Shown here piece by piece: positions 4,905-32,307 of a stretch of DNA of 64,000 nucleotides (the first letter of the stretch is position 1; each line of letters starts with the position of its first letter). Under the pieces are notes generated by a model. That model was not told the DNA's origin. It worked only from the letters and a program-made list of their open reading frames with translations, and made no database searches. The translations under genes and the position numbers were made by a program. Origin of the DNA: Squalus acanthias (taxonomy: Eukaryota); the NCBI GenBank assembly GCA_030390025.1, contig CM059432.1:8742001-8806000 (forward strand). The letters are read 5' to 3'.

Positions 4905-4929
4905 ACAAGTCTTCGCAGAAATAGAAGTG

Positions 4930-5444: not shown

Positions 5445-5828
5445 CTTTTTTTGTAACTCGTTCCGGGATGTGGGCGTCGCTGGCAAGGCCAGCATTTATT
5501 GCCCATCCCTAATTGCCATTCAGAAGGTGGTGGTGAGCCACCATCTTGAACCGCTGCAGTCCGTGTGGTGAAGGTGCTCGCACAGTGCTGTTAGGGAGGG
5601 AGTTCCAGGATTTTGACCCAGCGACGATGAAGGAACGCCGATGTATTTTCAAGTCAGGATGCTGTGTGACTTGAAGGGGAAGTTGGAGGTGGTGGTGTTC
5701 CCATGCGCTTGTTGCCCTTCTCATTCTAGGTGGAAGAGGTCGCGGGTTTGGGAGGTGCTCCTGAAGAAGCCTTGGCAAGTTGCTGCAGTGCATCTTGTAG
5801 ATGGTACACACTGTAGCCACGGTACGCC
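5445..5828 (-). mobile_element. Non-LTR retrotransposon (CR1/L2-group LINE) 3' end, ORF2 C-terminus
   Basis: Minus strand reads HHRRTVATVCTIYKMHCSNLPRLL...RRSFIVAGSKSWNSLP...FKMVAHHHLL*. The SF...WNSLP motif is characteristic of CR1/L2-group ORF2 ends. AATAAA on the minus strand at 5495-5500. Confidence 0.8.
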
Positions 5829-8800
5829 GGTGGTGGATGGGGTGAATATTGAAGGTGGTGGATGGGGTGAATTTATGAAGGTGGTGGATGGGGTGAATAT
5901 TGAAGGTGATGGATGGAGGGTATATTGACGGTGGTGGATGGAGTGAATATTGAAGGTGGTGCATGGGGTGAATATTGAAGGTGGTGGATGGGGTGAATAT
6001 TGAAGGTTGTGGATGGAGTGAATATTAAAGGTGGTGGATGGGGTGAATATTGAATGTGGTGGATGGAGTGAATATTGAACGTGGTGGATGGAGTGAATAT
6101 TGAAGGTGGTGGATGGGGTGAATATTGAAGGTGTCGGATGGGGTGAATATTGAAGGTGGTGGATGGGGTGAATATTGAAGGTGGTGGATGGGGTGAATAT
6201 TGAAGGTGGTGGCTGGGGTGAATATTGAAGGTGGTGGATGGGGTGAATATTGAAGGTGGTGGATGAGGGAATATTGAAGGAGGTGGATGGGTGAATATTG
6301 AAGGTGGTGGATGAGGTGAATATTGAAGGTGGTGGCTGGGGTGAATATTGAAGGTGGTGGATGGGGTGAATACTGAAGGTCGTGGATGGAGTGAATATTG
6401 AAGGTGGTGGATGGAGTGAATATTGAAGGTGGTGGATGGGGTGAATATTGAACGTGGTGGATGGGGTGAATATTGAAGGTGGTGGATGGAGTGAATATTG
6501 AAGGTTGTGGAGGGATTGAATATTGAAGGTGGTGGATTGGGTGAATATTGAAGGTGGTGGATGGGATGAATATTGAAGGTGGTGGATGGGGTGAATATTG
6601 AAGGTGGTGGATGGGGTGAATATTGAAGGTGGTGGATGGGGTGAATATTGAAGGTGGTGGATGGAGTGAATATTGAAGGTGGTGGATGGAGTGAATATTG
6701 AAGGTGGTGGATGTGGTGAATATTGAAGGTGGTGAATGGGGTGAATATTGAAGGTGGTGGATGGGTGAATATTGAAGGTGGTGGATGGGGTGAATATTGA
6801 AGGTGGTGGATGGGGTGAATATTGAAGGTGGTGGATGGGGTGAATATTGAAGTTGGTGGATGGAGTGAATATTGAAGGTGGTGGATGGGGTGAATATTGA
6901 AGGTGGTGCATGGGGTGAATATTGAAGGTGGTGGATGGGGTGAATTTATGAAGGTGTTGGATGGGGTGAATATTGAAGGTGGTGGATGGGGTGAATATTG
7001 AACGGTGGTGGATGGGGTGAATATTGAAGGTGGTGGATGGAGTGAATATTGAAGGTGGTGGATGGAGTGAATATTGAAGGTGGTGGATGGAGTGAATATT
7101 GAAGGTGGTGGATGGAGTGAACATTGAAGGAGGATGATGGGGTGAATATTGAAGGTGGTGGATGGGGTGAATATTGAAGGTGGTGGATGGAGTGAATATT
7201 GAAGGTGGTGGATGGGGTGAATATTGAAGGTGGTGGATGGAGTGAATATTGAAGGTGGTGGATGGGGTGAATATTGAAGGTGGTGGATGGGGTGAATATT
7301 GAAGATGGTGGATGGAGTGAATATTGAAGGTGGTGGATGGGGTCAATATTGAAGGTGGTGGATGGGGTGAATATTGAAGGTGGTGGATGGTGTGATATTG
7401 AAGGTGGGGGATGGGTTGAATATTGAAGGTGGTGGATGGGGTGAATATTGAAGGTGGTGGATGGGAGTGAATATTGAATGTGGTGGATGGGGTGAATATT
7501 GAAGGTGGTGGATGGGGTGAATATTGAAGGTGGGGGATGGGGTGAATATTGAAGGTGGTTGATGGGGTGAATATTGAAGGTGGTGGATGGGGTGAATATT
7601 TAAGGTGGTGAATGGGGTGAATATTGAAGGTGGTGGAGGGAGTTAATATTGAAGGTGGTGGATGGAGTAAATATTGAAGGTGATGGATGGGGTGAATATT
7701 GAATTTAGTGGAGGTAGTGAATATTGAAGGTGGTGGATGGGGTGAATATTGAAGGTGGTGGATGGGGTTAAACTTGAAGGTGGTGGATGGGGTGAATATT
7801 GAAGGTGGTGGATGGAGTTAATATTGAAGGTGGTGGATGGGGTGAATATTGAAGGTGGTGGATGAGGTGAATATTGAAGGCGGTGGATGGGGTGAATATT
7901 GAAGGTGGGGGATGGAGTGAATATTGAAGGTGGTGGATGGGGTGAATATTGAAGGTGGTGGAGGGAGTGAATATTGAAGGTGGTGGATGGGGTGAATATT
8001 GAAGGTGGTGGATGGGGTGAATATTGAAGATGGTGGATGGGGTGAATATTGAAGGTGGTGGATGGAGTAAATATTGAAGTTGGTGGATGGAGTGAATATT
8101 GAAGGTGGTGGCTGGGGTGAATATTGAAGGTGCTGGATGGGGTGACCAATTAAGGTGGTGGATGGGGTGAATATTGAAGGTGGTGGATGGGGTGAATATT
8201 GAAGGTGGTGGATGGGGTGAATATTGAAGGTGGATGATGGGGTGAATATTGAAGGTGGTGGATGAGGTGAAAATTGAAGGTAGTGGATGGGGTGAATATT
8301 TAAGGTGGTGGATGGTGTGAATATTGAAGATGGTGGATGGGGTGAATATTGAAGGTGATGGATGGGGTGAATATTGAAGTTGGTGGATGGGGTGAATATT
8401 GAAGGTGGTGGATGGGNNNNNNNNNNNNNNNNNNNNNNNNNNNNNNNNNNNNNNNNNNNNNNNNNNNNNNNNNNNNNNNNNNNNNNNNNNNNNNNNNNNN
8501 NNNNNNNNNNNNNNNNNNNNNNNNNNNNNNNNNNNNNNNNNNNNNNNNNNNNNNNNNNNNNNNNNNNNNNNNNNNNNNNNNNNNNNNNNNNNNNNNNNNN
8601 NNNNNNNNNNNNNNNNAAGGTGGTGGATGGGGTGAATATTGAAGGTGGTGGATGGGGTGAATATTGAAGGTGGTGGATGGGGTGAATATTGAAGGTGGTG
8701 GATGGGGTGAATATTGAAGGTGGTGGATGGGGTGAATATTGAAGGTGGTGGATGGAGTGAAATTTGAAGGTGGTGGATGGGGTGAATATTGAAGGTGGTG

Positions 8801-11800
8801 ATGGGGTGAATATTGAAGGTGGTGGATGGGGTGAATATTGAAGGTGGTGGATGGGGTGAATATTGAAGGTGGTGGATTGGGTGAATATTGAAGGTGGTGG
8901 ATGGGGTGAATATTGAAGGTGGTGGATGGGGTGAATATTGAAGGTGGTGGATGGGGTGAATATTGAAGGTGGTGGATGGGGTGAATATTGAAGGTGGTGG
9001 ATGGGTGAATATTGAAGGTGGTGGATGGGGTGAATATTGAAGGTGGTGGATGGGGTGAATATTGAAGGTGGTGGATGGGTGAATATTGAAGGTGGTGGAT
9101 GGAGTGAATATTGAAGGTGGTGGATGGGGTGAATATTGAAGGTGTGGATGGGGTGAATATTGAAGGTGGTGGATGGTGTGAATATGAAAGGTGGTCGGAG
9201 GGAGTGCATATTGAAAGGTGGTGGGGGTGAATATTGAAGGTGGTGGATGGGAGTGAATATTGAAGGTGGTGGATGAGGTGAATATTGAAGGTGGTGGATG
9301 GAGGTGAATATTGAAGGTGGTGGATGGGTGAATATTGAAGGTGGTGGATGGGGTGAATATTGAAGGTGGTGGATGGGTGAATATTGAAGGTGGTGGATGG
9401 GGTGAATATTGAAGGTGGTGGATGGGGTGAAATTTGAAAGGTGGTGGATGGGAGTGAATATTGAAGGTGGTGGATGGGTGAATATTGAAGGTGGTGGATG
9501 GAGTGAATATTGAAGGTGGTGGATGGGGTGAATATTGAAGGTGGTGGATGGGTGAATATTGAAGGTGGTGGATGGGGTGAATATTGAAGGTGGTGGATGG
9601 GGTGAATATTGAAGGTGGTGGATGGGGTGAATATTGAAGGTGGTGGATGGGTGAATATTGAAGGTGGTGGATGGGGTGAATATTGAAGGTGGTGGATGGG
9701 GTGAATATTGAAGGTGGTGGATGGGTGAATATTGAAGGTGGTGGATGGGGTGAATATTGAAGGTGGTGGATGGGGTGAATATTGAAGGTGGTGGATGGGG
9801 TGAATATTGAAGGTGGTGGATGGGGTGAATATTGAAGGTGGTGGATGGAGTGAATATTGAAGGTGGTGGATGGGGTGAATATTGAAGGTGGTGGATGGGG
9901 TGAATATTGAAGGTGGTGGATGGGTGAATATTGAAGGTGGTGGATGGGTGAATATTGAAGGTGGTGGATGGGTGAATATTGAAGGTGGTGGATGGAGTGA
10001 ATATTGAAGGTGGTGGATGGGTGAATATTGAAGGTGGTGGATGGAGTGAATATTGAAGGTGGTGGATGGAGTGAATATTGAAGGTGGTGGATGGGTGAAT
10101 ATTGAAGGTGGTGGATGGGTGAATATGAAGGTGGTGGATGGGGTGAATATTGAAGGTGGTGGATGAGGTGAATATTGAAGGTGGTGGATGGGAGTGAATA
10201 ATTGAAGGTGGTGGATGGGGTGAATATGAAGGTGGTGGATGAGTGAATATTGAAGGTGGTGGATGGAGTGAATATTGAAGGTGGTGGATGGGGTGAATAT
10301 TGAAGGTGGTGGATGGAGTGAATATTGAAGGTGGTGGATGGGTGAATATTGAAGGTGGTGGATGGGGTGAATATTGAAGGTGTTGGATTGAGTGAATATT
10401 GAAGGTGGTGGATGGGGTGAATATTGAAGGTGGTGATTGGAGTGAATATTGATGGTGGTGGATGGGTGAATATTGACGGTGGTGGATGGGTGAATATTGA
10501 AGTGGTGGATGGGGTGAATATTGAAGGTGGTGGATGGGTGAATATTGAAGGTGGTGGATGGGTGATATTGAAGGTGGTGGATGGGGTGAATATTGAAGGT
10601 GGTGGATGGGGTGAATATTGAAGGTGGTGGATGGGGTGAATATTGAAGGTGGTGGATGGGGTGAATATTGAAGGTGGTGGATGGGGTGAATATTGAAGGT
10701 GGTGGATGGGGTGAATATTGAAGGTGGTGGATGGAGTGAATATTGAAGGTGGTGGATGGGGTGAATATTGAAGGTGGTGGATGGGTGAATATTGAAGGTG
10801 GTGGATGGGTGAATATTGAAGGTGGTGGATGGGTGAATATTGAAGGTGGTGGATGGGGTGAATATTGAAGGTGGTGGATGGGGTGAATATTGAAGGTGGT
10901 GGATGGGGTGAATATTGAAGGTGGTGGATGGGGTGAATATTGAAGGTGGTGGATGGGGTGAATATTGAAGGTGGTGGATGGGGTGAATATTGAAGGTGGT
11001 GGATGGGAGTGAATATTGAAGGTGGTGGATGGAGTGAATATTGAAGGTGGTGGATGGAGTGAATATTGAAGGTGGTGGATGGGGTGAATATTGAAGGTGG
11101 TGGATGGGGTGAATATTGAAGGTGGTGGATGGGGTGAATATTGAAGGTGGTGGATGGGTGAATATTGAAGGTGGTGGATGGGAGTGAATATTGAAGGTGG
11201 TGGATGGGTGAATATTGAAGGTGGTGGATGGGGTGAATATTGAAGGTGGTGGATGAGGTGAATATTGAAGGTGGTGGATGTGAGTGAATATTGAAGGTGG
11301 TGGATGAGGTGAATATTGAAGGTGGTGGATGGGGTGAATATTGAAGGTGGTGGATGGGGTGAATATTGAAGGTGGTGGATGGAGTGAATATTGAAGGTGG
11401 TGGATGGGAGTGAATATTGAAGGTGGTGGATGGGGTGAATATTGAAGGTGGTGGATGGGAGTGAATATTGAAGGTGGTGGATGGGGTGAATATTGAAGGT
11501 GGTGGATGGAGTGAATATTGAAGATGGTGGATGGAGTGAATATTGAAGGTGGTGGATGGAGTGAATATTGAAGGTGGTGGATGGGTGAATATTGAAGGTG
11601 GTGGATGGGGTGAATATTGAAGGTGGTGGATGGAGTGAATATTGAAGGTGGTGGATGGGGTGAATATTGAAGGTGGTGGATGGGGTGAATATTGAAGGTG
11701 GTGGATGGGGTGAATATTGAAGGTGGTGGATGGGTGAATATTGAAGGTGGTGATGGGGTGAATATTGAAGGTGGTGGATGGGTGAATATTGAAGGTGGTG

Positions 11801-14800
11801 GATGGGTGAATATTGAAGGTGGTGGATGGGGTGAATATTGAAGGTGGTGGATGGGTGAATATTGAAGGTGGTGGATGGGGTGAATATTGAAGGTGGTGGA
11901 TGGGTGAATATTGAAGGTGGTGGATGGGGTGAATATTGAAGGTGGTGGATGGGGTGAATATTGAAGGTGGTGGATGGGTGAATATTGAAGGTGGTGGATG
12001 GGAGTGAATATTGAAGGTGGTGGATGGGGTGAATATTGAAGGTGGTGGATGGGGTGAATATTGAAGGTGGTGGATGGGGTGAATATTGAAGGTGGTGGAT
12101 GGGGTGAATATTGAAGGTGGTGGATGGGTGAATATTGAAGGTGGTGGATGGAGTGAATATTGAAGGTGGTGGATGGGGTGAATATTGAAGGTGGTGGATG
12201 GGTGAATATTGAAGGTGGTGGATGGGGTGAATATTGAAGGTGGTGGATGGAGTGAATATTGAAGGTGGTGGATGGGAGTGAATATTGAAGGTGGTGGATG
12301 GGGTGAATATTGAAGGTGGTGGATGGAGTGAATATTGAAGGTGGTGGATGGGGTGAATATTGAAGGTGGTGGATGGGTGAATATTGAAGGTGGTGGATGG
12401 GGTGAATATTGAAGGTGGTGGATGGAGTGAATATTGAAGGTGGTGGATGGGGTGAATATTGAAGGTGGTGGATGGGTGAATATTGAAGGTGGTGGATGGA
12501 GTGAATATTGAAGGTGGTGGATGGAGTGAATATTGAAGGTGGTGGATGGGATGAATATTGAAGGTGGTGGATGGGGTGAATATTGAAGGTGGTGGATGGG
12601 ATGAAGTATTGAAGGTGGTGGATGAGTGGTGAATATTGAAGGTGGTGGGATTGGGTAAACTATTGAAGGTGGTGGATGGGCACAGTGAATATTGAAGGTG
12701 GTGGATGGGGTTGAATTACTTGAAGGTGGTGGATGGAGCCGTGAATACTGGAAGGTGGTGGATGGGATGAATTTTGCAAGGTGGTGGATGGGGTGAATAT
12801 GAAAGTGGTGGAGGGAGTGAAAATTGAAATGTGGGGATGGGTGTGAATATTGGAAGGTGGGCAGGGAAGTGAATATTGAAGGTTGGTGGATGGGGGGACT
12901 ATTGAAGGTGGTGGATGAGTGAATATTGAAGGGGGTGGATGAGGTGAATATTGACGTGGTGGATGGAGTGACTATTGAAGGTGGTGGATGGGTGTGAATA
13001 TTGAAGGAGGTGGATGGGGTGAATATTGAAGGTGTGGATTAGTTAATATTGAATGTGGTGTGGGGTGAATATTGAAGGTGCTGGATTGATAAATATGACG
13101 GTGGTGGATTGGGGTGAATATTGAAGGTGTGGATGGTGGTGAATATTGAAGGTGGTGGATGGGGTGAATATTGAAGGTGTGGATGGGAGTGAATATTGAA
13201 GGTGGTGGATGGGTGAATATTGAAGGTGGTGGATGGGTGAATATTGAAGGTGGTGGATGGGGTGAATATTGAAGGTGGTGGATGGGGTGAATATTGAAGG
13301 TGGTGGATGGAGTGAATATTGAAGGTGGTGGATGGGTGAATATTGAAGGTGGTGGATGGAGTGAATATTGAAGGTGGTGGATGGGGTGAATATTGAAGGT
13401 GGTGGAGGGAGTGAATATTGAAGGTGGTGGATGGGGTGAATATTGAAGGTGGTGGATGGGAGTGAATATTGAAGGTGGTGGATGGGGTGAATATTGAAGG
13501 TGGTGGATGGAGTGAATATTGAAGGTGGTGGATGGGGTGAATATTGAAGGTGGTGGATGGGGTGAATATTGAAGGTGGTGGATGGGTGAATATTGAAGGT
13601 GGTGGATGGGGTGAATATTGAAGGTGGTGGATGGGAGTGAATATTGAAGGTGGTGGATGGGGTGAATATTGAAGGTGGTGGATGGGAGTGAATATTGAAG
13701 GTGGTGGATGGGAGTGAATATTGAAGGTGGTGGATGGGGTGAATATTGAAGGTGGTGGATGGGTGTGAATATTGAAGGTGGTGGATGGAAGTGAATATTG
13801 AAGGTGGTGGATGGGGTGAATATTGAAGGTGGTGGATGGGTGAATATTGAAGGTGGTGGATGGGGTGAATATTGAAGGTGGTGGATGGGGTGAATATTGA
13901 GGGTGGTGGATGGTGGAGAGATATTGAAGGTGGTGGATGGGTGAATATTGAAGGTGATGGATGGGGTGAATATTGAAGGTGGTGGATGGGGTGATATTGA
14001 GGTGGTTGATTGACGTGAATATTGAAGGTGGTGATGGGGTGAATATTGAAGGTGGTGGATTGAGGTGAATGTTGAAGTTGGTGGATGGGGAGAATATCTG
14101 AAGGTAGATGGATGAGGTGTGAATATTGAAGGTGGTGGATGGGGTGAATATTGAAGGTGGAGGATGCGTTGAATAATTGAATGTGGTGGATGAGGGTGAA
14201 TATTGACGGTGGTGTATGGCGTGAATATTTGAAGGTGGTGGATGGAGGTGAATATTGAAGGTGGTGGATGGGTGAATATTGAAGGTGGTGGATGGGGTGA
14301 ATATTGAAGGTGGTGGATGGGTGAATATTGAAGGTGGTGGATGGAGTGAATATTGAAGGTGGTGGATGAGGTGAATATTGAAGGTGGTGGATGGAGTGAA
14401 TATTGAAGGTGGTGGATGGGGTGAATATTGAAGGTGGTGGATGGGGTGAATATTGAAGGTGGTGGATGGGGTGAATATTGAAGGTGGTGGATGGGGTGAA
14501 TATTGAAGGTGGTGGATGGAGTGAATATTGAAGGTGGTGGATGAGGTGAATATTGAAGGTGGTGGATGGAGTGAATATTGAAGGTGGTGGATGGAGTGAA
14601 TATTGAAGGTGGTGGATGGGTGAATATTGAAGGTGGTGGATGGGTGAATATTGAAGGTGGTGGATGGGTGAATATTGAAGGTGGTGGATGGGTGAATATT
14701 GAAGGTGGTGGATGAGGTGAATATTGAAGGTGGTGGATGGGGTGAATATTGAAGGTGGTGGATGAGGTGAATATTGAAGGTGGTGGATGGGGTGAATATT

Positions 14801-17800
14801 GAAGGTGGTGGATGGGAGTGAATATTGAAGGTGGTGGATGGGAGTGAATATTGAAGGTGGTGGATGAGGTGTGAATATTGAAGTGGTGGATGGGGTGAAT
14901 ATAGAAGTAGGTGGATGGAGTGAATATTGAAGGTGGTGGATGGGGGTGAATATTGAGAGGTGGCTGGACTGGAGTGTGAATATTGAAGGTGGAGGATGGG
15001 GTGAATATGAAGGTGGTGGATGGAGATGAATATCTGAAGGAGGTGGATGTGAGTGAATATTGAAGGTGTGGATGGGGTGAATATTGAAGTGGTGGATGGA
15101 GTGAATATTGAAGGTGGTGGATGAGGTGAATATTGAAGGTGGTGGAGGGTGTGATATTGAAGGTGGTGGATGGGGTGAATATTGAAGGTGGTGGATGGAG
15201 GTGAATATTGAGGTGGTGGATGGGGGAATATTGAAGGTGGTGGATGGGAGTGAATATTGAAGGTGGTGGATGGAGTGAATATTGAAGGTGGTGGATGGGG
15301 TGAATATTGAAGGTGGTGGATGGGGTGAATATTGAAGGTGGTGGATGGGGTGAATATTGAAGGTGGTGGATGGGGTGAATATTGAAGGTGGTGGATGGGG
15401 TGAATATTGAAGGTGGTGGATGAGGTGAATATTGAAGGTGGTGGATGGGTGAATATTGAAGGTGGTGGATGGGGTGAATATTGAAGGTGGTGGATGGAGT
15501 GAATATTGAAGGTGGTGGATGGGTGAATATTGAAGGTGGTGGATGGAGTGAATATTGAAGGTGGTGGATGGGGTGAATATTGAAGGTGGTGGATGGAGTG
15601 AATATTGAAAGTGGTGGATGGGGTGAATATTGAAGGTGGTGGATGAGGTGAATATTGAAGGTGGTGGATGGGAGTGAATATTGAAGGTGGTGGATGGGTG
15701 AATATTGAAGGTGGTGGATGGGTGAATATTGAAGGTGGTGGATGGGGTGAATATTGAAGGTGGTGGATGGAGTGAATATTGAAGGTGGTGGATGGAGTGA
15801 ATATTGAAGGTGGTGGATGGAGTGAATATTGAAGGTGGTGGATGGGTGAATATTGAAGGTGGTGGATGGGGTGAATATTGAAGGTGGTGGATGGGGTGAA
15901 TATTGAAGGTGGTGGATGGGGTGAATATTGAAGGTGGTGGATGGGGTGAATATTGAAGGTGGTGGATGGGGTGAATATTGAAGGTGGTGGATGGGGTGAA
16001 TATTGAAGGTGGTGGATGGGGTGAATATTGAAGGTGGTGGATGGGTGAATATTGAAGGTGGTGGATGGAGTGAATATTGAAGGTGGTGGATGAGGTGAAT
16101 ATTGAAGGTGGTGGATGGAGTGAATATTGAAGGTGGTGGATGGGGTGAATATTGAAGGTGGTGGATGGGGTGAATATTGAAGGTGGTGGATGGGGTGAAT
16201 ATTGAAGGTGGTGGATGGGTGAATATTGAAGGTGGTGGATGGGGTGAATATTGAAGGTGGTGGATGGAGTGAATATTGAAGGTGGTGGATGGGGTGAATA
16301 TTGAAGGTGGTGGATGGGGTGAATATTGAAGGTGGTGGATGAGGTGAATATTGAAGGTGTGGATGAGTGATATGAGTGGTGGATGGTGAATATTGAAGGT
16401 GGTGGATGGGGTGAATATTAAGGTGGTGGATGGGGTGAATATTGAAGGTGGTGGATGGGTGAATATTGAAGGTGGTGGATGGGTGAATATTGAAGGTGGT
16501 GGATGGGAGTGAATATTGAAGGTGGTGATGGGGTGAATATTGAAGGTGTGGATGGGGTGAATATTGAAGGTGGTGGATGGGGTGAATATTGAAGGTGGTG
16601 GATTGGAGTGAATATTGAAGGTGGTGGATGAGGTGAATATTGAAGGTGGTGGATGGAGTGAATATTGAAGGTGGTGGATGGGTGAATATTGAAGGTGGTG
16701 GATGGGGTGAATATTGAAGGTGGTGGATGGGGTGAATATTGAAGTGGTGGATGGGAGTGAATATTGAAGGTGGTGGATGGGAGTGAATATTGAAGGTGGT
16801 GGATGGAGGTGAATATTGAAGGTGGTGGATGGGGTGAATATTGAAGGTGGTGGATGGGTGAATATTGAAGGTGGTGGATGGGTGAATATTGAAGGTGGTG
16901 GATGGGTGAATATTGAAGGTGGTGGATGGTGAATATTGAAGGTGGTGGATGGGGTGAATATTGAAGGTGTTGGATTGAGTGAATATTGAAGGTGGTGGAG
17001 GGTTGAATATTGAAGGTGTGGATGGAGTGAATATTGAAGTGGTGGATGGGGTGAATATTGAAGGTGTGGATGGGGTGAATATTGAAGGTGGTGGATGGGT
17101 GAATATTGAAGGTGGTGGATGGGTGAATATTGAAGGTGGTGGATGGGAGTGAATATTGAAGGTGGTGGATGGGGTGAATATTGAAGGTGGTGGATGGAGT
17201 GAATATTGAAGGTGGTGGATGGGTGAATATTGAAGGTGGTGGATGGGTGAATATTGAAGGTGGTGGATGGGGTGAATATTGAAGGTGGTGGATGGGGTGA
17301 ATATTGAAGGTGGTGGATGGGTGAATATTGAAGGTGGTGGATGGAGTGAATATTGAAGGTGGTGGATGGAGTGAATATTGAAGGTGGTGGATGGGTGAAT
17401 ATTGAAGGTGGTGGATGGGGTGAATATTGAAGGTGGTGGATGGGTGAATATTGAAGGTGGTGGATGGGGTGAATATTGAAGGTGGTGGATGGGGTGAATA
17501 TTGAAGGTGGTGGATGGGGTGAATATTGAAGGTGGTGGATGGGGTGAATATTGAAGGTGGTGGATGGGTGAATATTGAAGGTGGTGGATGAGGTGAATAT
17601 TGAAGGTGGTGGATGGGGTGAATATTGAAGGTGGTGGATGGGGTGAATATTGAAGGTGGTGGATGGGTGAATATTGAAGGTGGTGGATGGAGTGAATATT
17701 GAAGGTGGTGGATGAGGTGAATATTGAAGGTGGTGGATGGAGTGAATATTGAAGGTGGTGGATGGGGTGAATATTGAAGGTGGTGGATGGAGTGAATATT

Positions 17801-20800: not shown

Positions 20801-23800
20801 AAGGTGGTGGATGGGGTGAATATTGAAGGTGGTGGATGGGTGAATATTGAAGGTGGTGGATGGGGTGAATATTGAAGGTGGTGGATGGGGTGAATATTGA
20901 AGGTGGTGGATGGGGTGAATATTGAAGGTGGTGGATGGGGTGAATATTGAAGGTGGTGGATGGAGTGAATATTGAAGGTGGTGGATGGGGTGAATATTGA
21001 AGGTGGTGGATGGGTGAATATTGAAGGTGGTGGATGGAGTGAATATTGAAGGTGGTGGATGGGGTGAATATTGAAGGTGGTGGATGGGGTGAATATTGAA
21101 GGTGGTGGATGGGGTGAATATTGAAGGTGGTGGATGGGGTGAATATTGAAGGTGGTGGATGGAGTGAATATTGAAGGTGGTGGATGGGTGAATATTGAAG
21201 GTGGTGGATGGGTGAATATTGAAGGTGGTGGATGGGGTGAATATTGAAGGTGGTGGATGGAGTGAATATTGAAGGTGGTGGATGGGGTGAATATTGAAGG
21301 TGGTGGATGAGGTGAATATTGAAGGTGGTGGATGGGGTGAATATTGAAGGTGGTGGATGGGTGAATATTGAAGGTGGTGGATGGGTGAATATTGAAGGTG
21401 GTGGATGGGTGAATATTGAAGGTGGTGGATGGGGTGAATATTGAAGGTGGTGGATGGGTGAATATTGAAGGTGGTGGATGGAGTGAATATTGAAGGTGGT
21501 GGATGGGGTGAATATTGAAGGTGGTGGATGGGAGTGAATATTGAAGGTGGTGGATGGGGTGAATATTGAAGGTGGTGGATGGGTGAATATTGAAGGTGGT
21601 GGATGGGGTGAATATTGAAGGTGGTGGATGGGGTGAATATTGAAGGTGGTGGATGGGGTGAATATTGAAGGTGGTGGATGGGGTGAATATTGAAGGTGGT
21701 GGATGGAGTGAATATTGAAGGTGGTGGATGGAGTGAATATTGAAGGTGGTGGATGGGGTGAATATTGAAGGTGGTGGATGGGAGTGAATATTGAAGGTGG
21801 TGGATGAGGTGAATATTGAAGGTGGTGGATGGAGGTGAATATTGAAGGTGGTGGATGGGGTGAATATTGAAGGTGGTGGATGGGGTGAATATTGAAGGTG
21901 GTGGATGGGATGAATATTGAAGGTGGTGGATGGGGTGAATATTGAAGGTGGTGGATGGAGTGAATATTGAAGGTGGTGGATGGGAGTGAATATTGAAGGT
22001 GGTGGATGGGTGAATATTGAAGGTGGTGGATGGGGTGAATATTGAAGGTGGTGGATGGGTGAATATTGAAGGTGGTGGATGGGGTGAATATTGAAGGTGG
22101 TGGATGGGGTGAATATTGAAGGTGGTGGATGGAGTGAATATTGAAGGTGGTGGATGGGTGAATATTGAAGGTGGTGGATGGGTGAATATTGAAGGTGGTG
22201 GATGGAGTGAATATTGAAGGTGGTGGATGGGGTGAATATTGAAGGTGGTGGATGGAGTGAATATTGAAGGTGGTGGATGGGTGAATATTGAAGGTGGTGG
22301 ATGGAGTGAATATTGAAGGTGGTGGATGGGGTGAATATTGAAGGTGGTGGATGGGTTGAATATTGAAGGTGGTGGATGGGGTGAATATTGAAGGTGGTGG
22401 ATGGGGTGAATATTGAAGGATGGAGTGAATATTGAAGGTGGTGGATGGGTGAATATTGAAGGTGGTGGATGGGGTGAATATTGAAGGTGGTGGATGGGGT
22501 GAATATTGAAGGTGGTGGATGGGGTGAATATTGAAGGTGGTGGATGGGGTGAATATTGAAGGTGGTGGATGGGTGAATATTGAAGGTGGTGGATGAGGTG
22601 AATATTGAAGGTGGTGGATGGGTGAATATTGAAGGTGGTGGATGGGGTGAATATTGAAGGTGGTGGATGGAGTGAATATTGAAGGTGGTGGATGGGGTGA
22701 ATATTGAAGGTGGTGGATGGAGTGAATATTGAAGGTGGTGGATGGGGTGAATATTGAAGGTGGTGGATGGGGTGAATATTGAAGGTGGTGGATGGGGTGA
22801 ATATTGAAGGTGGTGGATGGAGTGAATATTGAAGGTGGTGGATGGGTGAATATTGAAGGTGGTGGATGGAGTGAATATTGAAGGTGGTGGATGGGGTGAA
22901 TATTGAAGGTGGTGGATGGGTGAATATTGAAGGTGGTGGATGGGGTGAATATTGAAGGTGGTGGATGGGTGAATATTGAAGGTGGTGGATGTGGTGAATA
23001 TTGAAGGTGGTGGATGGGGTGAATATTGAAGGTGGTGGATGGGGTGAATATTGAAGGTGGTGGATGGGGTGAATATTGAAGGTGGTGGATGGGTGAATAT
23101 TGAAGGTGGTGGATGGGGTGAATATTGAAGGTGGTGGATGGGAGTGAATATTGAAGGTGGTGGATGGGGTGAATATTGAAGGTGGTGGATGGGGTGAATA
23201 TTGAAGGTGGTGGATGGGGTGAATATTGAAGGTGGTGGATGGGGTGAATATTGAAGGTGGTGGATGGGTGAATATTGAAGGTGGTGGATGGGGTGAATAT
23301 TGAAGGTGGTGGATGGGTGAATATTGAAGGTGTATGGAATGGTGATTGAATATTGAAGGTGGTGGATGGAGTGAATATTGAAGGTGGTGGATGGGGTGAA
23401 TATTGAAGGTGGTGGATGGGGTGAATATTGAAGGTGGTGGATGGGGTGAATATTGAAGGTGGTGGATGGAGTGAATATTGAAGTGGTGGATGGGGTGAAT
23501 ATTGAAGGTGGTGGAGGGGTGAATATTGAAGGTGGTGGATGGGGTGAATATTGAAGGTGGTGGAGGGAGTGAATATTGAAGGTGGTGGATGGGGTGAATA
23601 TTGAAGGTGGTGGATGGGAGTGAATATTGAAGGTGGTGGATGGGGTGAATATTGAAGGTGGTGGATGAGGTGAATATTGAAGGTGGTGGATGGGGTGAAT
23701 ATTGAAGGTGGTGGATGGGTGAATATTGAAGGTGGTGGATGGGGTGAATATTGAAGGTGGTGGATGGGTGAATATTGAAGGTGGTGGATGGGTGAATATT

Positions 23801-26800
23801 GAAGGTGGTGGATGGGGTGAATATTGAAGGTGGTGGATGGGGTGAATATTGAAGGTGGTGGATGGGGTGAATATTGAAGGTGGTGGATGGAGTGAATATT
23901 GAAGGTGGTGGATGAGGTGAATATTGAAGGTGGTGGATGGAGTGAATATTGAAGGTGGTGGATGGGATGAATATTGAAGGTGGTGGATGGGGTGAATATT
24001 GAAGGTGGTGGATGGGGTGAATATTGAAGGTGGTGGATGGGGTGAATATTGAAGGTGGTGGATGAGGTGAATATTGAAGGTGGTGGATGGGTGAATATTG
24101 AAGGTGGTGGATGGAGGTGAATATTGAAGGTGGTGGATGGGGTGAATATTGAAGGTGGTGGATGGGGTGAATATTGAAGGTGGTGGATGGGGTGAATATT
24201 GAAGGTGGTGGATGGGGTGAATATTGAAGGTGGTGGATGGGTGAATATTGAAGGTGGTGGATGGGGTGAATATTGAAGGTGGTGGATGGGTGAATATTGA
24301 AGGTGGTGGATGGAGTGAATATTGAAGGTGGTGGATGGGTGAATATTGAAGGTGGTGGATGAGGTGAATATTGAAGGTGGTGGATGGGGTGAAAATTGAA
24401 GGTGGTGGATGGGGTGAATATTGAAGGTGGTGGATGGGGTGAATATTGAAGGTGGTGGATGGAGTGAATATTGAAGGTGGTGGATGGGTGAATATTGAAG
24501 GTGGTGGATGGGGTGAATATTGAAGGTGGTGGATGGGGTGAATATTGAAGGTGGTGGATGGGGTGAATATTGAAGGTGGTGGATGGGGTGAATATTGAAG
24601 GTGGTGGATGGAGTGAATATTGAAGGTGGTGGATGGGGTGAATATTGAAGGTGGTGGATGGGTGAATATTGAAGGTGGTGGATGGAGTGAATATTGAAGG
24701 TGGTGGATGGGTGAATATTGAAGGTGGTGGATGGGGTGAATATTGAAGGTGGTGGATGGGGTGAATATTGAAGGTGGTGGATGGGGTGAATATTGAAGGT
24801 GGTGGATGGGGTGAATATTGAAGGTGGTGGATGGGGTGAATATTGAAGGTGGTGGATGGGGTGAATATTGAAGGTGGTGGATGGGTGAATATTGAAGGTG
24901 GTGGATGGGTGAATATTGAAGGTGGTGGATGGGGTGAATATTGAAGGTGGTGGATGGGTGAATATTGAAGGTGGTGGATGGGGTGAATATTGAAGGTGGT
25001 GGATGGGTGAATATTGAAGGTGGTGGATGGGGTGAATATTGAAGGTGGTGGATGGGGTGAATATTGAAGGTGGTGGATGGGGTGAATATTGAAGGTGGTG
25101 GATGGGTGAATATTGAAGGTGGTGGATGGGGTGAATATTGAAGGTGGTGGATGGGGTGAATATTGAAGGTGGTGGATGGGGTGAATATTGAAGGTGGTGG
25201 ATGGGGTGAATATTGAAGGTGGTGGATGGGGTGAATATTGAAGGTGGTGGATGGGTGAATATTGAAGGTGGTGGATGGGGTGAATATTGAAGGTGGTGGA
25301 TGGGGTGAATATTGAAGGTGGTGGATGGAGTGAATATTGAAGGTGGTGGATGGGGTGAATATTGAAGGTGGTGGATGGGGTGAATATTGAAGGTGGTGGA
25401 TGGGGTGAATATTGAAGGTGGTGGATGGGGTGAATATTGAAGGTGGTGGATGGAGTGAATATTGAAGGTGGTGGATGGGGTGAATATTGAAGGTGGTGGA
25501 TGGGGTGAATATTGAAGGTGGTGGATGGGGTGAATATTGAAGGTGGTGGATGGGGTGAATATTGAAGGTGGTGGATGAGGTGAATATTGAAGGTGGTGGA
25601 TGGAGTGAAAATTGAAGGTGGTGGATGGGGTGAATATTGAAGGTGGTGGATGGGGTGAATATGAAGGTGTGGATGGGTGAATATTGAAGGTGGTGGATGG
25701 GGTGAATATTGAAGGTGGTGGATGAGGTGAATATTGAAGGTGGTGGATGGGAGTGAATATTGAAGGTGGTGGATGGGAGTGACTATTGAAGGTGGTGGAT
25801 GGGGTGAATATTGAAGGTGGTGGATGAGGTGAATATTGAAGGTGGTGGATGGGGTGAAAATTAAGGTGATGGATGGGGTGAATATTGAAGGTGGTGGATG
25901 GGGTGAATATTGAAGGTGGTGGATGGGAGTGAATATTGAAGGTGGTGGATGGGTGAATATTGAAGGTGGTGGATGAGGTGAATATTGAAGGTGGTGGATG
26001 GAGTGAATATTGAAGGTGGTGGATGGGGTGAATATTGAAGGTGGTGGATGGGGTGAATATTGAAGGTGGTGGATGGGAGTGAATATTGAAGGTGGTGGAA
26101 TGGGAGAGAATATTGAAGGTGGTGGATGGGGTGAATATTGAAGGTGGTGGATGGGTGAATATTGAAGGTGGTGGATGAGTGAATATTGAAGGTGGTGGAT
26201 GGGTGAATATTGAAGGTGGTGGATGGGGTGAATATTGAAGGTGGTGGATGGAGTGAATATTGAAGGTGGTGGATGAGTGAATATTGAAGTGATGTTGAAT
26301 ATTGAAGGTGGTGGATGGGTGAATATTGAAGGTGGTGGATGGGTGAATATTGAACGTGGTGGATGGGGTGAATATTGAAGGTGGTGGATGGGAGTGAATA
26401 TTGAAGGTGGTGGATGAGGTGAATATTGAAGGTGGTGGATGGGGTGATATTGAAGGTGGTGGATGGGGTGAATATTGAAGGTGGTGGATGGGGTGAATAT
26501 TGAAGGTGTGGATGGGGTGAATATTGAAGGTGGTGGATGGGATGAATATTGAAGGTGGTGGATGGAGTGAATATTGAAGGTGGTGGATGGAGTGAATATT
26601 GAAGGTGGTGGATGGAGTGAATATTTGAAGGTGGTGGATGGGGGTGAATATTGAAGGTGTTGGATGGGTGAATATTGAAGGTGGTGGTGAATATTGAAGG
26701 TGGTGGATGGGTGAATATTGAAGGTGGTGGATGGGGTGAATATTGAAGGTGGTGGATGGGGTGAATATTGAAGGTGGTGGATGGGGTGAATATTGAAGGT

Positions 26801-29800
26801 GGTGGATGGGGTGAATATTGAAGGTGGTGGATGGAGTGAATATTGAAGGTGGTGGATGGGGTGAATATTGAAGGTGGTGGATGGGGTGAATATTGAAGGT
26901 GGTGGATGGGGTGAATATTGAAGGTGGTGGATGGGTGAATATTGAAGGTGGTGGATGGGGTGAATATTGAAGGTGGTGGATGGGGTGAATATTGAAGGTG
27001 GTGGATGGGGTGAATATTGAAGGTGGTGGATGGGGTGAATATTGAAGGTGGTGGATGGGGTGAATATTGAAGGTGGTGGATGGGTGAATATTGAAGGTGG
27101 TGGATGGAGTGAATATTGAAGGTGGTGGATGGGTGAATATTGAAGGTGGTGGATGGAGTGAATATTGAAGGTGGTGGATGGGGTGAATATTGAAGGTGGT
27201 GGATGGGGTGAATATTGAAGGTGGTGGATGGGGTGAATATTGAAGGTGGTGGATGGAGTGAATATTGAAGGTGGTGGATGGGGTGAATATTGAAGGTGGT
27301 GGATGGGGTGAATATTGAAGGTGGTGGATGGGTGAATATTGAAGGTGTGGATGAGGTGAATATTGAAGGTGGTGGATGGGTGAATATTGAAGGTGGTGGA
27401 TGGGTGAATATTGAAGGTGGTGGATGAGGTGAATATTGAAGGTGGTGGATGGGTGAATATTGAAGGTGGTGGATGGGGTGAATATTGAAGGTGGTGGATG
27501 GAGTGAATATTGAAGGTGGTGGATGGGGTGAATATTGAAGGTGGTGGATGGGGTGAATATTGAAGGTGGTGGATGGAGTGAATATTGAAGGTGGTGGATG
27601 GGTGAATATTGAAGGTGGTGGATGGAGTGAATATTGAAGGTGGTGGATGGGGTGAATATTGAAGGTGGTGGATGGAGTGAATATTGAAGGTGGTGGATGA
27701 GGTGAATATTGAAGGTGGTGGATGGGGTGAATATTGAAGGTGGTGGATGGGGTGAATATTGAAGGTGGTGGATGGGGTGAATAATGAAGGTGTGGATGGG
27801 GTGAATATTGAAGGTGGTGGATGGGTGAATATTGAAGTTGGTGGATGGGGTGAATATTGAAGGTGGTGGATGGGGTTAAATATTGAAGGTGGTGGTGGAG
27901 TGAATATTGAAGGTGGTGGATGGGGTGAATATTGAAGGTGGTGGATGGGTGAATATTGAAGGTGGTGGATGGGGTGAATATTGAAGGTGGTGGATGGAGT
28001 GAATATGAAGGTGGTGGATGGAGTGAATATTGAAGGTGGGTGGATGGGGTGAATATTGAAGGTGGTGGATGGGTGAATATGAAGGTGGTGGATGAGGTGA
28101 ATAATGAAGGTGGTGGATGGGGTGAATATTGAAGGTGGTGGATGGAGTGAATATTGAAGGTGGTGGATGGGAGTGAATATGAAGGTGGTGGATGGGTGAA
28201 TATTGAAGGTGGTGGATGGGGTGAATATTGAAGGTGGTGGATGGGTGAATATGAAGTGGTGATGGGTGAATATTGAAGGTGGTGGATGAGGTGAATATTG
28301 AAGGTGGTGGATGGAGTGAATATTGAAGGTGGTGGATGGAGTGAATATTGAAGGTGGTGGATGGGGTGAATATTGAAGGTGGTGGATGGGTGAATATTGA
28401 AGGTGGTGGATGGGTGAATATTGAAGGTGGTGGATGGGTGAATATTGAAGGTGGTGGATGGAGTGAATATTGAAGGTGGTGGATGGAGTGAATATTGAAG
28501 GTGGTGGATGGGGTGAATATTGAAGGTGGTGGATGGGTGAATATTGAAGGTGGTGGATGGGGTGAATATTGAAGGTGGTGGATGGGGTGAATATTGAAGG
28601 TGGTGGATGGAGTGAATATTGAAGGTGGTGGATGGGGTGAATATTGAAGGTGGTGGATGGAGTGAATATTGAAGGTGGTGGATGGAGTGAATATTGAAGG
28701 TGGTGGATGGGGTGAATATTGAAGGTGGTGGATGGGGTGAATATTGAAGGTGGTGGATGGGGTGAATATTGAAGGTGGTGGATGGAGTGAATATTGAAGG
28801 TGGTGGATGGGGTGAATATTGAAGGTGGTGGATGGGGTGAATATTGAAGGTGGTGGATGGGGTGAATATTGAAGGTGGTGGATGGAGTGAATATTGAAGG
28901 TGGTGGATGGGTGAATATTGAAGGTGGTGGATGGGTGAATATTGAAGGTGGTGGATGGGGTGAATATTGAAGGTGGTGGATGGGAGTGAATATTGAAGGT
29001 GGTGGATGGAGGTGAATATTGAAGGTGGTGGATGGGGTGAATATTGAAGGTGGTGGATGGAGTGAATATTGAAGGTGGTGGATGGGGTGAATATTGAAGG
29101 TGGTGGATGGGGTGAATATTGAAGGTGGTGGATGGGGTGAATATTGAAGGTGGTGGATGGGGTGAATATTGAAGGTGGTGGATGAGATGAATATTGAAGG
29201 TGGTGGATGTGAGTGAATATTGAAGGTGGTGGATGAGGTGAATATTGAAGGTGGTGGATGGGGTGAATATTGAAGGTGGTGGATGGGGTGAATATTGAAG
29301 GTGGTGGATGGGAGTGAATATTGAAGGTGGTGGATGGGGTGAATATTGAAGGTGGTGGATGGGGTGAATATTGAAGGTGGTGGATGAGGTGAATATTGAA
29401 GGTGGTGGATGGGAGTGAATATTGAAGGTGGTGGATGGAGTGAATATTGAAGGTGGTGGATGGGGTGAATATTGAAGGTGTTGGATGGAGTGAATATTGA
29501 AGGTGGTGAATGGGGTAAATATTGAAGGAGGTGTGCAATGGGAGGTGACTATTGAAGGTGTGGATGGGGTGAATATTGAAGGTGTTGGCTTGAAGTGAAT
29601 ATTGAAGGTGGTGGATGGAGTAAATATTGAAGGTGGTGGAAGGGGTGATATTGAAGGTGGTGGAGAGTGAATATATTACGGGGTGGATGGGGTGAATATT
29701 GAAGGTGGTGGATGGGGTGAATATTGAAGGTGGTGGATGAGGTGAATATTGAAGGTGGTGGATGGGGTGAATATTGAAGGTGGTGGATGGGAGTGAATAT

Positions 29801-32307
29801 TGAAGGTGGTGGATGGGTGAATACTGAAGTGGTGGATGAGGTGAATATTGAAGGTGGTGGATGGGTGAATATTGAAGGTGGTGGATGGGGTGAATATTGA
29901 AGGTGGTGGATGGGAGTGACTATTGAAGGTGGTGGATGGGGTGAATATTGAAGGTGGTGGATGGAGTGAATATTGAAGGTGGTGGATGGAGTGAATATTG
30001 AAGGTGGTGGATGGGGTGAATATTGAAGGTGGTGGATGGGTGAATATTGAAGGTGGTGGATGGGGTGAATATTGAAGGTGGTGGATGGGGTGAATATTGA
30101 AGGTGGTGGATGGGGTGAATATTGAAGGTGGTGGATGAGGTGAATATTGAAGGTGGTGGATGGGAGTGAATATTGAAGGTGGTGGATGGGGTGAATATTG
30201 AAGGTGGTGGATGGGGTGAATATTGAAGGTGGTGGATGAGGGTGAATATGAAGGTGGTGGATGGGTGAATATTGAAGGTGGTGGATGGGGTGAATATTGA
30301 AGGTGGTGGATGGGGTGAATATTGAAGGTGGTGGATGGGGTGAATATTGAAGGTGGTGGATGGAGTGAATATTGAAGGTGGTGGATGGGGGTGAATATTG
30401 AAGGTGGTGGATGGGGTGAATATTGAAGGTGGTGGATGGGTGAATATTGAAGGTGGGGACTGAGGTGAATATTGAAGGTGGTGGATGGAGTGAATATTGA
30501 AGGTGGTGGATGGAGTGAATATTGAAGGTGATGGATGGGGTGAATATTGAAGGTGGTGGATGGGGTGAATATTGAAGGTGGTGGATGGGGTGAATATTGA
30601 AGGTGGTGGATGGAGTGAATATTGAAGGTGGTGGATGAGGTGAATATTGAAGGTGGTGGATGGAGTGAATATTGAAGGTGGTGGATGGGTGAATATTGAA
30701 GGTGGTGGATGGGGTGAATATTGAAGGTGGTGGATGGGGTGAATATTGAAGGTGGTGGATGGGGTGAATATTGAAGGTGGTGGATGGGGTGAATATTGAA
30801 GGTGGTGGATGGGGTGAATATTGAAGGTGGTGGATGGAGTGAATATTGAAGGTGGTGGATGGAGTGAATATTGAAGGTGGTGGATGGGGTGAATATTGAA
30901 GGTGGTGGATGGGGTGAATATTGAAGGTGGTGGATGGGGTGAATATTGAAGGTGGTGGATGGGTGAATATTGAAGGTGGTGGATGGGGTGAATATTGAAG
31001 GTGGTGGATGGAGTGAATATTGAAGGTGGTGGATGGAGTGAATATTGAAGGTGGTGGATGGGGTGAATATTGAAGGTGGTGGATGAGGTGAATATTGAAG
31101 GTGGGGGATGGGGTGAATATTGAAGGTGGTGGATGGGGTGAATATTGAAGGTGGTGGATGGGGTGAATATGAAGGTGGTGGATGGGGTGAATATTGAAGG
31201 TGGTGGATGGGGTGAATATTGAAGGTGGTGGATGGGGTGAATATTGAAGGTGGTGGATGGGAGTGAATATTGAAGGTGGTGGATGGGGTGAATATTGAAG
31301 GTGGTGGATGGGGTGAATATTGAAGGTGGTGGATGGGTGAATATTGAAGGTGGTGGATGGGGTGAATATTGAAGGTGGTGGATGGGGTGAATATTGAAGG
31401 TGGTGGATGGGGTGAATATTGAAGGTGGTGGATGGGGTGAATATGAAGGTGGTGGATGGGGTGAATATTGAAGGTGGTGGATGGGGTGAATATTGAAGGT
31501 GGTGGAGGGAGTGAATATTGAAGGTGGTGGATGGGGTGAATATTGAAGGTGGTGGATGGGGTGAATATTGAAGGTGGTGGATGGGGTGAATATTGAAGGT
31601 GGTGGATGGAGTGAATATTGAAGGTGGTGGATGGGTGAATATTGAAGGTGGTGGATGAGCTGAATATTGAAGGTGGTGGATGGAGTGAATATTGAAGGTG
31701 GTGGATTGGGTGAATATTGAAGGTAGTGGATGGGAGTGAATATTGAATGTGGTGGATGGGCTGAATATTGAAGGTGGTGGATGAGGTGAATATTGAAGGT
31801 GGTGGATGGGGTGAATATTGAAGGTGGTGGATGGGGTGAATATTGAAGGTGGTGGATGGGGTGAATATTGAAGGTGGTGGATGGAGTGAATATTGAAGTT
31901 GGTGGATGAGGTGAATATTGAAGGTGGTGGATGGAGTGAATATTGAAGGTGGTGGATTGGTTGAATATTGAAGGTGGTGGATGAGGTGAATATTGAAGGT
32001 GGTGGATGGAGTGAATTTTGAAGGTGGTGGATTGGGTGAATATTGAAGGTGGTGGATGAGGTGAATATTGAAGGTGGTGGATGAGGTGAATATTGAAGGT
32101 GGTGGATGGAGTGAATATTGAAGGTGGTGGATGGGGTGAATATTGAAGGTGGTGGATGGGGTGAATATTGAAGGTGGTGGATGGGGTGAATATTGAAGGT
32201 GGTGGATGGGGTGAATATTTAAGGTGGTAAATGGAGTGAATATTGAAGGTGGTGTTTGAGGTGAATATTGAAGGTGGTAAATGGAGTGAATATTGAAGGT
32301 GGTGGAT
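5829..32307 (+). repeat. 25-bp satellite array (GAAGGTGGTGGATGGGGTGAATATT)n, roughly 1000+ units, ~26.5 kb
   Basis: Directly visible. Main variants lie in the GGGG stretch (GGAG, GAGG, GGG, GGGAG). Confidence 0.99.
8417..8616. other. Assembly gap (200 N) inside the satellite
   Basis: Run of exactly 200 N, probably a scaffolding placeholder. Confidence 0.99.

What the first reader, a model, noticed from the sequence alone, without database searches (positions are those of the whole stretch)
5445..32307. A 26-kb satellite apparently born from a LINE ORF2 coding segment, still fused to its parent
Seen: on the minus strand the array runs without a break, in frame, into the LINE ORF2 C-terminus (..PSTTFNIHPIHH|RRTVATVCTIYKMHC). 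The LINE sequence stops being unique exactly where the array starts (5829) and does not resume after 32307. Scattered variant units (GTGGAGGGAGTGAAT at ~7958, 13402, 23560, 31503; GGGGTGACCAATTAAGG at ~8140) look like ancestral LINE sequence. Inference: an internal GGTGGTGGA direct repeat 25 bp apart in this LINE seeded a ~1000-fold amplification at or near its 5' truncation point, so a satellite is caught next to its source.
Basis: partly seen in the sequence, partly recalled or inferred. Interest (0 to 1): 0.75.

Follow-up and report, generated by a model that had tools for sequence, protein, structure and literature searches.

The report
Giant minisatellite grown from shark LINE
About a thousand copies of a 25-base repeat grew out of a short natural near-duplication inside a jumping gene of a shark and still sit against the parent copy; this is a clear and unusually large case of an already known way in which repeat DNA is born.

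Summary
The array is real (25 bp, about 1,060 units, 5829-32307) and its origin is confirmed. Public contigs of the LINE family run colinearly through 5869 and then continue into upstream ORF2, and a horn-shark copy reads IGTPSTTFNIHSLHHR. So the LINE itself carries an imperfect direct repeat 25 bp apart. The satellite unit is a hybrid of the two LINE copies. The parental letters survive as the commonest and joint-third commonest variants and are linked (6 of 7 against 174 of 663, P=0.002). One claim fails: a 200-N scaffold gap (8417-8616) breaks the array, so only 2.6 kb is physically joined to the LINE and the true size is unknown. The interior also looks like noisy long-read consensus. The insertion is shared with another organism that has little of the repeat. 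Both edges are older (about 3% diverged) than the interior (0.4%). This is the known direct-repeat slippage route for transposon-derived minisatellites, at unusual scale. This scan has noted similar LINE-derived arrays, with other units, elsewhere in the same genome. Verdict: new member of a known kind.

The parts
5250..5444 (.). Single-copy flank at the LINE 3' end; same flank joined to the LINE tail in another organism (G)
   Evidence: table 8: X1 record 1 spans 5250-5485 (3 other letters); X22 record 9 spans 5250-5498 (13 other letters, 11 gap letters)
5445..5508 (-). LINE 3' UTR and decayed A-rich tail
   Evidence: family contigs end here in T-runs on the + strand (table 7, places 5464-5467)
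5509..5828 (-). C-terminal 106 codons and stop of ORF2 of a CR1-group LINE (probably the elasmobranch Zenon lineage; clade not tested)
   Evidence: homologues in shark gene models and ENA contigs at 57-76% identity; profile reaches full-length endonuclease + RVT_1 proteins
5829..5869 (-). The seed: the LINE's own imperfect direct repeat, 25 bp apart; in this copy the proximal repeat has been overwritten by the array consensus at 5838 and 5841
   Evidence: tables 3 and 7; P0013 reads IGTPSTTFNIHSLHHR
5829..8416 (.). LINE-proximal part of the array: 103 complete units, old (3.2% substitutions per site outside positions 12-13), few indels; contiguous with the LINE
7954..7978 (.). Unit carrying both ancestral LINE letters (G10 and A13); others start at 7629, 13398, 23556, 31498
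8129..8153 (.). Single unit whose last third resembles the letters that follow the distal LINE repeat (7 of 8)
   Evidence: the only one of 1056 units with 3 or more substitutions in positions 17-25; 26 of 10,206 possible 4-substitution clusters match as well
8417..8616 (.). 200-N scaffold gap inside the array; hidden length unknown
8617..31597 (.). Homogeneous interior: 925 units, 0.4% substitutions per site in indel-free units, 0.46 indels per unit (267 of 287 deletions in homopolymers), bursts of errors; looks like noisy long-read consensus
31598..32307 (.). Distal edge: 28 complete diverged units (2.7% per site) plus a partial unit, then unrelated sequence; no target-site duplication found

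Best explanation
A giant minisatellite (VNTR-like satellite array) that grew in place from a 5'-truncated CR1-group LINE of a shark. Steps: (1, shown) this LINE subfamily carries in ORF2 two imperfect repeats 25 bp apart. (2, shown for the 3' junction) a copy inserted here before organisms A and G separated; its 5' part is absent, by truncation in or just beyond the distal repeat or by later deletion (inferred). (3, inferred from the anatomy) misalignment between the two repeats, by replication slippage or unequal exchange, crossing at positions 14-16, made a first extra unit that has the first 16 letters of the distal repeat and the last 9 of the proximal one: this is exactly the array consensus; crossings or conversions at other points give the A13 and G10+A13 units. 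(4, inferred) an early array of at least 130 units aged to about 3% divergence; a much later internal expansion and homogenisation added most of the length and left the old units at both edges. The G-rich, C-free strand may help instability through weak G-quadruplexes (speculative). No function is indicated; the product is neutral repeat DNA.
For: LINE contigs colinear through 5869 with G5838/A5841 and upstream ORF2 as loose end; P0013 and P0019 carry the same peptide. Of 75 possible substitutions, A13 ranks first (203 of 1056 units) and G10 joint third (12), and G10 goes with A13 in 6 of 7 against 174 of 663 (Fisher P=0.0019). Orthologous flank-LINE junction in run X22. Depth in the last, array-only bin relative to a LINE bin: 1.5e-3 (X1) and 2.0e-2 (X5) in organism A against 1.2e-4 (X22) and 2.6e-5 (X6) (computed table 2; the tool warns that summed depth is no copy number). 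Head-to-tail joints in contigs of both samples of A (tables 5, 5c). Edges 3.2% and 2.7% against interior 0.43%, longer old zone on the LINE side. Mechanism in print: 5-10 bp direct repeats flanking a motif seed minisatellites (PMC6947457 passage; PMC3389668 passages).
Against: The gap means that the 23.7-kb part is not shown to be joined to the LINE. The first unit, next to the LINE, has lost both ancestral letters, so the junction itself has been rewritten. The last partial unit stops at position 10 (or 14 with two mismatches), short of the 16 letters the hybrid needs, and no target-site duplication was found, so the original 5' junction is not preserved as such. No duplicated blocks or higher-order period were found in the interior (best diagonal 11.9 against 10.0 +/- 1.0 in 30 shuffles), although block duplication with low noise gave higher scores in most simulations. 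The LINE letters at 5848-5853 are not among the 40 of 124 rows shown; they are inferred from the peptide FNI. G4Hunter is only 1.0 over the array and 1.2 for the consensus.
Confidence: 0.78

Rival explanations
1. The unit is LINE-derived but was born at another copy; a multi-locus satellite family later became joined to this LINE copy by ectopic recombination or conversion through the shared 41 bases.
For: The first unit has the satellite letters rather than the LINE letters; no target-site duplication and no LINE 5' part. Two CR1-derived arrays in the same genome were judged by earlier agents to be members of abundant families (unchecked notes).
Against: The oldest and longest diverged zone lies against the LINE. 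Summed depth of perfect units is only 0.15-2% of LINE depth in organism A and divides to order 10^3-10^4 units against single-copy contig depths of about 10 and 35 (rough), which one or a few arrays of this size would explain.
Confidence: 0.1
2. The first tandem units were made during insertion: the reverse transcriptase slipped back 25 nt on its RNA template at the repeat, perhaps stalling on G-rich cDNA, and terminated there; chromosomal expansion followed.
For: The array starts at the repeat and the element ends there; the first-strand cDNA is the G-rich strand. A slip at positions 14-16 gives the same hybrid unit.
Against: Nothing here separates this from post-insertion slippage; organism G, which shares the insertion, shows little of the repeat, though a few units would not be seen. 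Depth along the LINE cannot show a truncation hot spot because the reference itself leaves the LINE after 5869.
Confidence: 0.08
3. The size and continuity are largely an assembly product: a short (2.6 kb or somewhat longer) array at the LINE was scaffolded to a separate array, or the interior is an inflated noisy read.
For: 200-N gap; interior indel rate 0.46 per unit against 0.07-0.08 at the edges, with substitutions and indels rising together (Spearman 0.49, P=0.0005); one-G-short units are 166 of 926 in the interior against 2 of 103 on the left and no such deletion is listed for the third unit in public contigs (table 4; absence there is weak).
Against: Both sides have the same orientation, each has one diverged edge against unique DNA, and they share the A13 frequency (27 of 95, 139 of 592, 8 of 26 indel-free units) and rare variants. 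Noise adds differences and cannot make the interior more uniform than the edges while keeping a 24-29% variant. Tandem joints exist in independent contigs.
Confidence: 0.1
4. Chance resemblance between an unrelated G-rich satellite and the LINE end.
For: The unit is low in complexity.
Against: 39 of 41 letters colinear at the exact junction as far as one search shows, 10 of 12 residues identical to P0013 in frame (counted by hand), and linkage of the two ancestral letters.
Confidence: 0.01

Closest known systems
Direct-repeat model of minisatellite origin (Haber & Louis 1998) and Alu-derived minisatellites (Jurka & Gentles 2006); seen only as described in passages of PMC6947457 and PMC3389668
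   Same: A motif bounded by 5-10 bp direct repeats inside a retroelement is duplicated by slippage or unequal exchange and then expanded in place; incomplete terminal unit.
   Different: Parent is LINE ORF2 coding DNA, not a SINE; about 1,060 units or more against mean 2.3-2.4 units for Alu-derived repeats (PMC3389668 section 3.2); the unit is a demonstrable hybrid of two imperfect repeats.
SINE-derived satellites (sSat) of squamate reptiles, PMC10702118 (abstract and passages)
   Same: Tandem arrays of an internal retroelement segment with leading and trailing parent parts; longer arrays more uniform; unit number varies between related species.
   Different: SINE parent, longer units (145 nt given for one family), many loci, and described as not amplified to the degree of typical satellites.
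LINE ORF2-related repeats: chicken HinfI (CR1 3' UTR and partial ORF2), Phodopus PROsat (L1 ORF2), seal Pvc 20 (L1 ORF2); seen as listed in review PMC9659126 (passages)
   Same: Tandem repeat related to LINE ORF2.
   Different: In those, a LINE fragment is embedded in or resembles part of a larger monomer, or is a microsatellite; here the whole 25-bp monomer is LINE coding DNA and the parent is adjacent.
Mouse (GGCAGA)n VNTR family from a dimer in SINE B1, and Ms6-hm/Hm-2 from MaLR LTRs (table rows of PMC9659126 and PMC6947457)
   Same: A pre-existing short dimer in a retroelement seeds a G-rich tandem array in place.
   Different: 6-bp (B1) units and non-coding parents; hypermutability was not tested here.
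Elasmobranch Zenon elements, CR1 group (PMC13343379, passages)
   Same: CR1-group ORF2, poly-A tail said to be unique to Zenon among CR1-group elements, nearest relatives outside vertebrates.
   Different: No RT domain in the window and no named Zenon reference at hand, so the assignment of the parent is a lead only; the words tandem and satellite do not occur in that paper's main text.

Membership tests
Transposon-derived minisatellite/satellite (direct-repeat route) | Whole monomer is homologous to one segment of a transposable element family | tested here: met
   colinear 5829-5869; P0013
Transposon-derived minisatellite/satellite (direct-repeat route) | Segment bounded by short direct repeats one unit apart in the parent | tested here: met
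   9-bp perfect, 14 of 16 imperfect repeat 25 bp apart, tables 3 and 7
Transposon-derived minisatellite/satellite (direct-repeat route) | Array lies at the parent position in a genomic copy and ends in an incomplete unit | tested here: met
   only the first 2.6 kb is gap-free
Transposon-derived minisatellite/satellite (direct-repeat route) | Expansion happened in place after insertion (orthologue has the element with few or no units) | tested here: inconclusive
   Shared 3' junction and low repeat depth in X22, but no contig spans the site
Classical satellite DNA family | Very large or multi-locus arrays, in heterochromatin | not testable with these tools
   No genome held; contig depths suggest order 10^3-10^4 units (rough)
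Classical satellite DNA family | Higher-order repeat structure (present in some families only) | tested here: not met
   power falls with noise
Hypervariable VNTR | Allelic length variation between individuals | tested here: inconclusive
   Perfect-unit depth differs strongly between samples S1 and S2, but a rare-variant joint gives similar counts in both; summed contig depth is no copy number
CR1-group LINE (parent) | ORF2 with endonuclease and reverse transcriptase domains | tested here: met
   By homology only: 6 of 6 full-length hits scanned have RVT_1 and an Exo_endo_phos-type domain; the window fragment itself has no Pfam hit
Zenon clade (parent) | Poly-A tail | tested here: met
   T-runs before 5464-5467 in all four runs (table 7), preceded on the element strand by a short GAAT-type repeat
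Zenon clade (parent) | RT phylogeny within Zenon; no ORF1 | not tested
   No RT in the window, no named reference; distant single long ORFs lie on 3.3-4.1 kb contigs, which is only suggestive
G-quadruplex-destabilised minisatellite (CEB1 type) | G-triplet tracts with short loops forming stable G4 that cause instability | tested here: inconclusive
   G4Hunter 1.0-1.2; mostly GG doublets and one G4 run per unit; no experiment. CEB1 paper seen as abstract and outline only

The most novel reading that the evidence does not exclude
This 41-bp stretch of a high-copy shark LINE is a mobile satellite seed: the G-rich imperfect repeat favours 5' truncation and slippage at the same spot, so independent copies repeatedly launch the same hybrid 25-mer, and this shark lineage lets such seeds run to tens of kilobases by conversion-like scrambling that leaves no duplicated blocks. 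With the sister LINE subfamily that lacks two codons here (GTTSTNIQ) as a built-in control and a shared insertion in a related organism as the ancestral state, satellite birth and runaway growth would become directly measurable.
Probability: 0.2. Interest if true: 0.6.

Novelty: new member of a known kind. Interest (0 to 1): 0.33.

Why it matters
Most satellites have lost their source. Here the parent, the two seed repeats, the crossover interval (positions 14-16), surviving ancestral letters, an old-edge and young-core age structure and a related organism with the same insertion are all within reach, so the direct-repeat model can be checked step by step at a scale several hundred times that of typical transposon-derived repeats. 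It is a good teaching and test case, not a new mechanism; its wider value depends on whether the same LINE position does this repeatedly.

Tried and rejected
No whole genome is held, so no LINE consensus, copy count or search for other arrays. No second copy of this LINE in the window and no upstream part. Metagenome scan gave 2 weak unrelated loci among 230 candidate stretches, not used. The unit had 0 matches in viral contigs. Rfam: 0 matches in the window. Pfam on 85 flanking ORFs (1-5445 outside the 19-bp array, and 32308-37200): 2 weak hits below cut-off, no host gene found; short exons would be missed. Long ORFs in the array were rejected as compositional. Higher-order repeats: not found; one lag on the left part (15 units, z 4.0 against 3.5) is marginal and not pursued. 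Target-site duplication: longest shared word 6 letters, not at the junctions. Copy-number difference between samples S1 and S2 was considered and not claimed. The X6 contig ends about 8 bases into the tail and says nothing on whether organism B has the insertion. Low-level repeat depth in X22 and X6 may be LINE contigs laid one unit out of register. Literature: 8 searches found no paper on this repeat or on LINE-derived satellites in sharks; the library lacks most subscription journals and no supplements were read, so this is not proof of absence.
Full report
1. What is there. Tandem Repeats Finder reports one array at 5829-32307, period 25, 1064 copies, 93% matches. A wrap-around alignment gives 1059 units, 1056 complete; 987 SspI sites. 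The + strand has 61 C in 26,279 bases. The array is not unbroken: exactly 200 N lie at 8417-8616, the usual form of a scaffold gap (my knowledge). 2,588 bases are contiguous with the LINE and 23,691 lie beyond the gap. No foreign insertion was found in the array apart from the gap.

2. The parent. On the minus strand 5829-5512 encodes 106 residues ending at a stop at 5509-5511, followed by a short UTR and a decayed A-tail at 5445. The nine hits of two searches are shark gene models with this piece fused in, or unnamed ENA/JGI proteins, at 57-76% identity. A profile of four sequences reached 1,374 proteins at E up to 0.001; 6 of 6 full-length ones that I scanned carry an endonuclease domain and RVT_1. 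So this is the end of a LINE ORF2, in a shark-type genome. The family ends in poly-A, which PMC13343379 (passages) calls unique to Zenon among CR1-group elements and reports for elasmobranchs; I did not test the clade.

3. The key test: does the LINE contain the unit? No genome is held and the window has no second copy, so I laid contigs of four public runs on 5250-5905 at 80% likeness (4 of the 24 runs listed). Tens of thousands of contigs lie on the LINE part. They continue into the array: at 5838 they read G instead of T (92, 73, 93, 96% of depth in X1, X5, X22, X6) and at 5841 A instead of G (94, 67, 94, 98%). In X1, 98 contigs leave the reference after 5869 with a loose end beginning CCAATCAAG (agreement 0.64; only 24 of about 2,800 loose-end rows are shown, and this place is shown for X1 only). 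Read by hand on the minus strand the loose end gives IQDKAARLIG, as in P0007. Independently, P0013, a horn-shark gene model with this LINE fused in, reads IGTPSTTFNIHSLHHR, against PSTTFNIHPIHHR in the window. The LINE therefore has two imperfect repeats 25 bp apart, 14 of 16 letters alike, the first 9 identical. The letters at 5848-5853 are not among the 40 of 124 rows shown and are inferred from the peptide.

4. The unit is a hybrid. The consensus has T10 and G13, the letters of the distal repeat, followed by the nine letters that follow the proximal repeat. One misalignment crossing at positions 14-16 produces it. The parental letters persist: among 75 possible substitutions A13 is first (203 of 1056 units), A12 second (65), G10 joint third (12); G10 goes with A13 in 6 of 7 clean cases against 174 of 663 (Fisher P=0.0019). 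The unit at 8129 is the only one with three or more substitutions in positions 17-25 and matches 7 of 8 letters that follow the distal repeat; 26 of 10,206 possible four-substitution clusters do so, so it is probably a relic or a conversion from another LINE copy. Against a simple picture: the very first unit has lost both ancestral letters; the last partial unit stops at position 10, or 14 with two mismatches; there is no target-site duplication; the upstream LINE is absent from the window. Both junctions have been reworked, or the 5' end was deleted later.

5. Order of events. This copy differs from the family majority at no fewer than 21 of 374 positions (rows shown for X1). A contig of organism G spans 5250-5498, flank into LINE tail, with 13 other letters and 11 gap letters, so the insertion predates the A/G split. 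Depth in the last bin (array only) is 8,185 (X1), 228,468 (X5), 863 (X22) and 86 (X6), against 3-12 million on the LINE; the tool warns that this is no copy number, but it points to growth in the lineage of A and to order 10^3-10^4 units in all. Head-to-tail joints appear in contigs of both samples of A, so the tandem is real. Within the array, indel-free units differ from the consensus (positions 12-13 left out) by 3.2% per site on the left (95 units), 0.43% in the interior (592) and 2.7% at the right edge (26): old edges, young core, the longer old zone next to the LINE.

6. Quality of the interior. Indels are 0.46 per unit there against 0.07-0.08 at the edges, 267 of 287 deletions fall in homopolymers, and substitutions and indels rise together in bursts. 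This looks like unpolished long-read sequence. It cannot explain the greater uniformity, since noise adds differences and the A13 variant stays at 24-29%. It does limit the search for structure: I found no higher-order period, no clustering of A-type units (378 transitions against 382 +/- 13) and no duplicated blocks (11.9 against 10.0 +/- 1.0, shuffle maximum 12.7), whereas simulated growth by block duplication usually scored higher at 5-15% noise and often not at 25%. Either noise or short-patch conversion has scrambled the pattern; this is unexplained.

7. Mechanism. Shown: native seed repeat, hybrid unit, surviving parental letters, shared insertion, age structure. Inferred: first duplication by slippage or unequal exchange, later internal expansion with homogenisation. 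Speculative: help from G-quadruplexes (G4Hunter 1.0-1.2). No host gene or RNA family was found nearby and no function is indicated.

8. Comparison with what is known. The direct-repeat route is described in PMC6947457 (passages) and PMC3389668 (abstract, passages and section 3.2), which finds 23% of human minisatellites and satellites to be transposon-derived, with Alu-derived ones averaging 2.3-2.4 units. PMC10702118 (abstract and passages) describes SINE-derived arrays in reptiles. PMC9659126 (passages) lists LINE ORF2-related repeats. PMC10620051 (passages) quantifies shark tandem repeats; the passages I saw do not address their origin. PMC4245944 and PMC5491262 were seen as abstract and outline only. 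Eight searches found no account of this repeat; supplements were not read and repeat libraries could not be searched. Earlier notes of this scan report three other LINE-derived arrays in the same genome (28, 49 and 51 bp units; unchecked), and no look-alike of this unit.

9. Verdict. It is a new and unusually large member of a known kind. Interest 0.33; it would rise to about 0.6 if the same LINE position proves to launch such arrays repeatedly.

Noticed in passing
window 44274-45469: 67-bp tandem array, 17.8 copies, 94% matches; the unit has no match elsewhere in the window.
   Followed up: partly
window 3169-4287: G-rich 19-bp tandem array, about 59 copies, same strand skew as the large array, 1.2 kb from the LINE tail.
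   Followed up: no
window 54298-57800: Harbinger/PIF-type transposon: open 440-aa DDE_Tnp_4 frame on + and a Myb/SANT frame on -, facing each other.
   Followed up: partly
window 35011-35475 and 51688-52812: Two fragments of another LINE family, 92% identical over 397 bases, one with a weak RVT_1 hit.
   Followed up: no
window 41514-43558, 47913-48416, 61701-63708: Further decayed LINE fragments (RVT_1 at 63226-63705) and several copies of a ~370-bp interspersed repeat (for example 35840-36209, 50757-51123, 60942-61340).
   Followed up: no
P0001, P0003-P0006, P0013: The ORF2 end of this LINE is fused in frame into at least six predicted shark protein isoforms (PSMG2, prostacyclin receptor, KCNH2, CAT4, PBX4, JMJD8 models): frequent exonisation or an annotation artefact.
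   Followed up: no
P0007, P0008, P0010, P0012, P0014 against P0013, P0019: Two LINE subfamilies differ by two codons exactly at the seed (GTTSTNIQ against GTPSTTFNIH); the short one is a natural control for array formation.
   Followed up: partly
window 8617-31597: A-type units (29%) are interspersed as if at random, with no blocks or period; noise or conversion, unresolved.
   Followed up: partly
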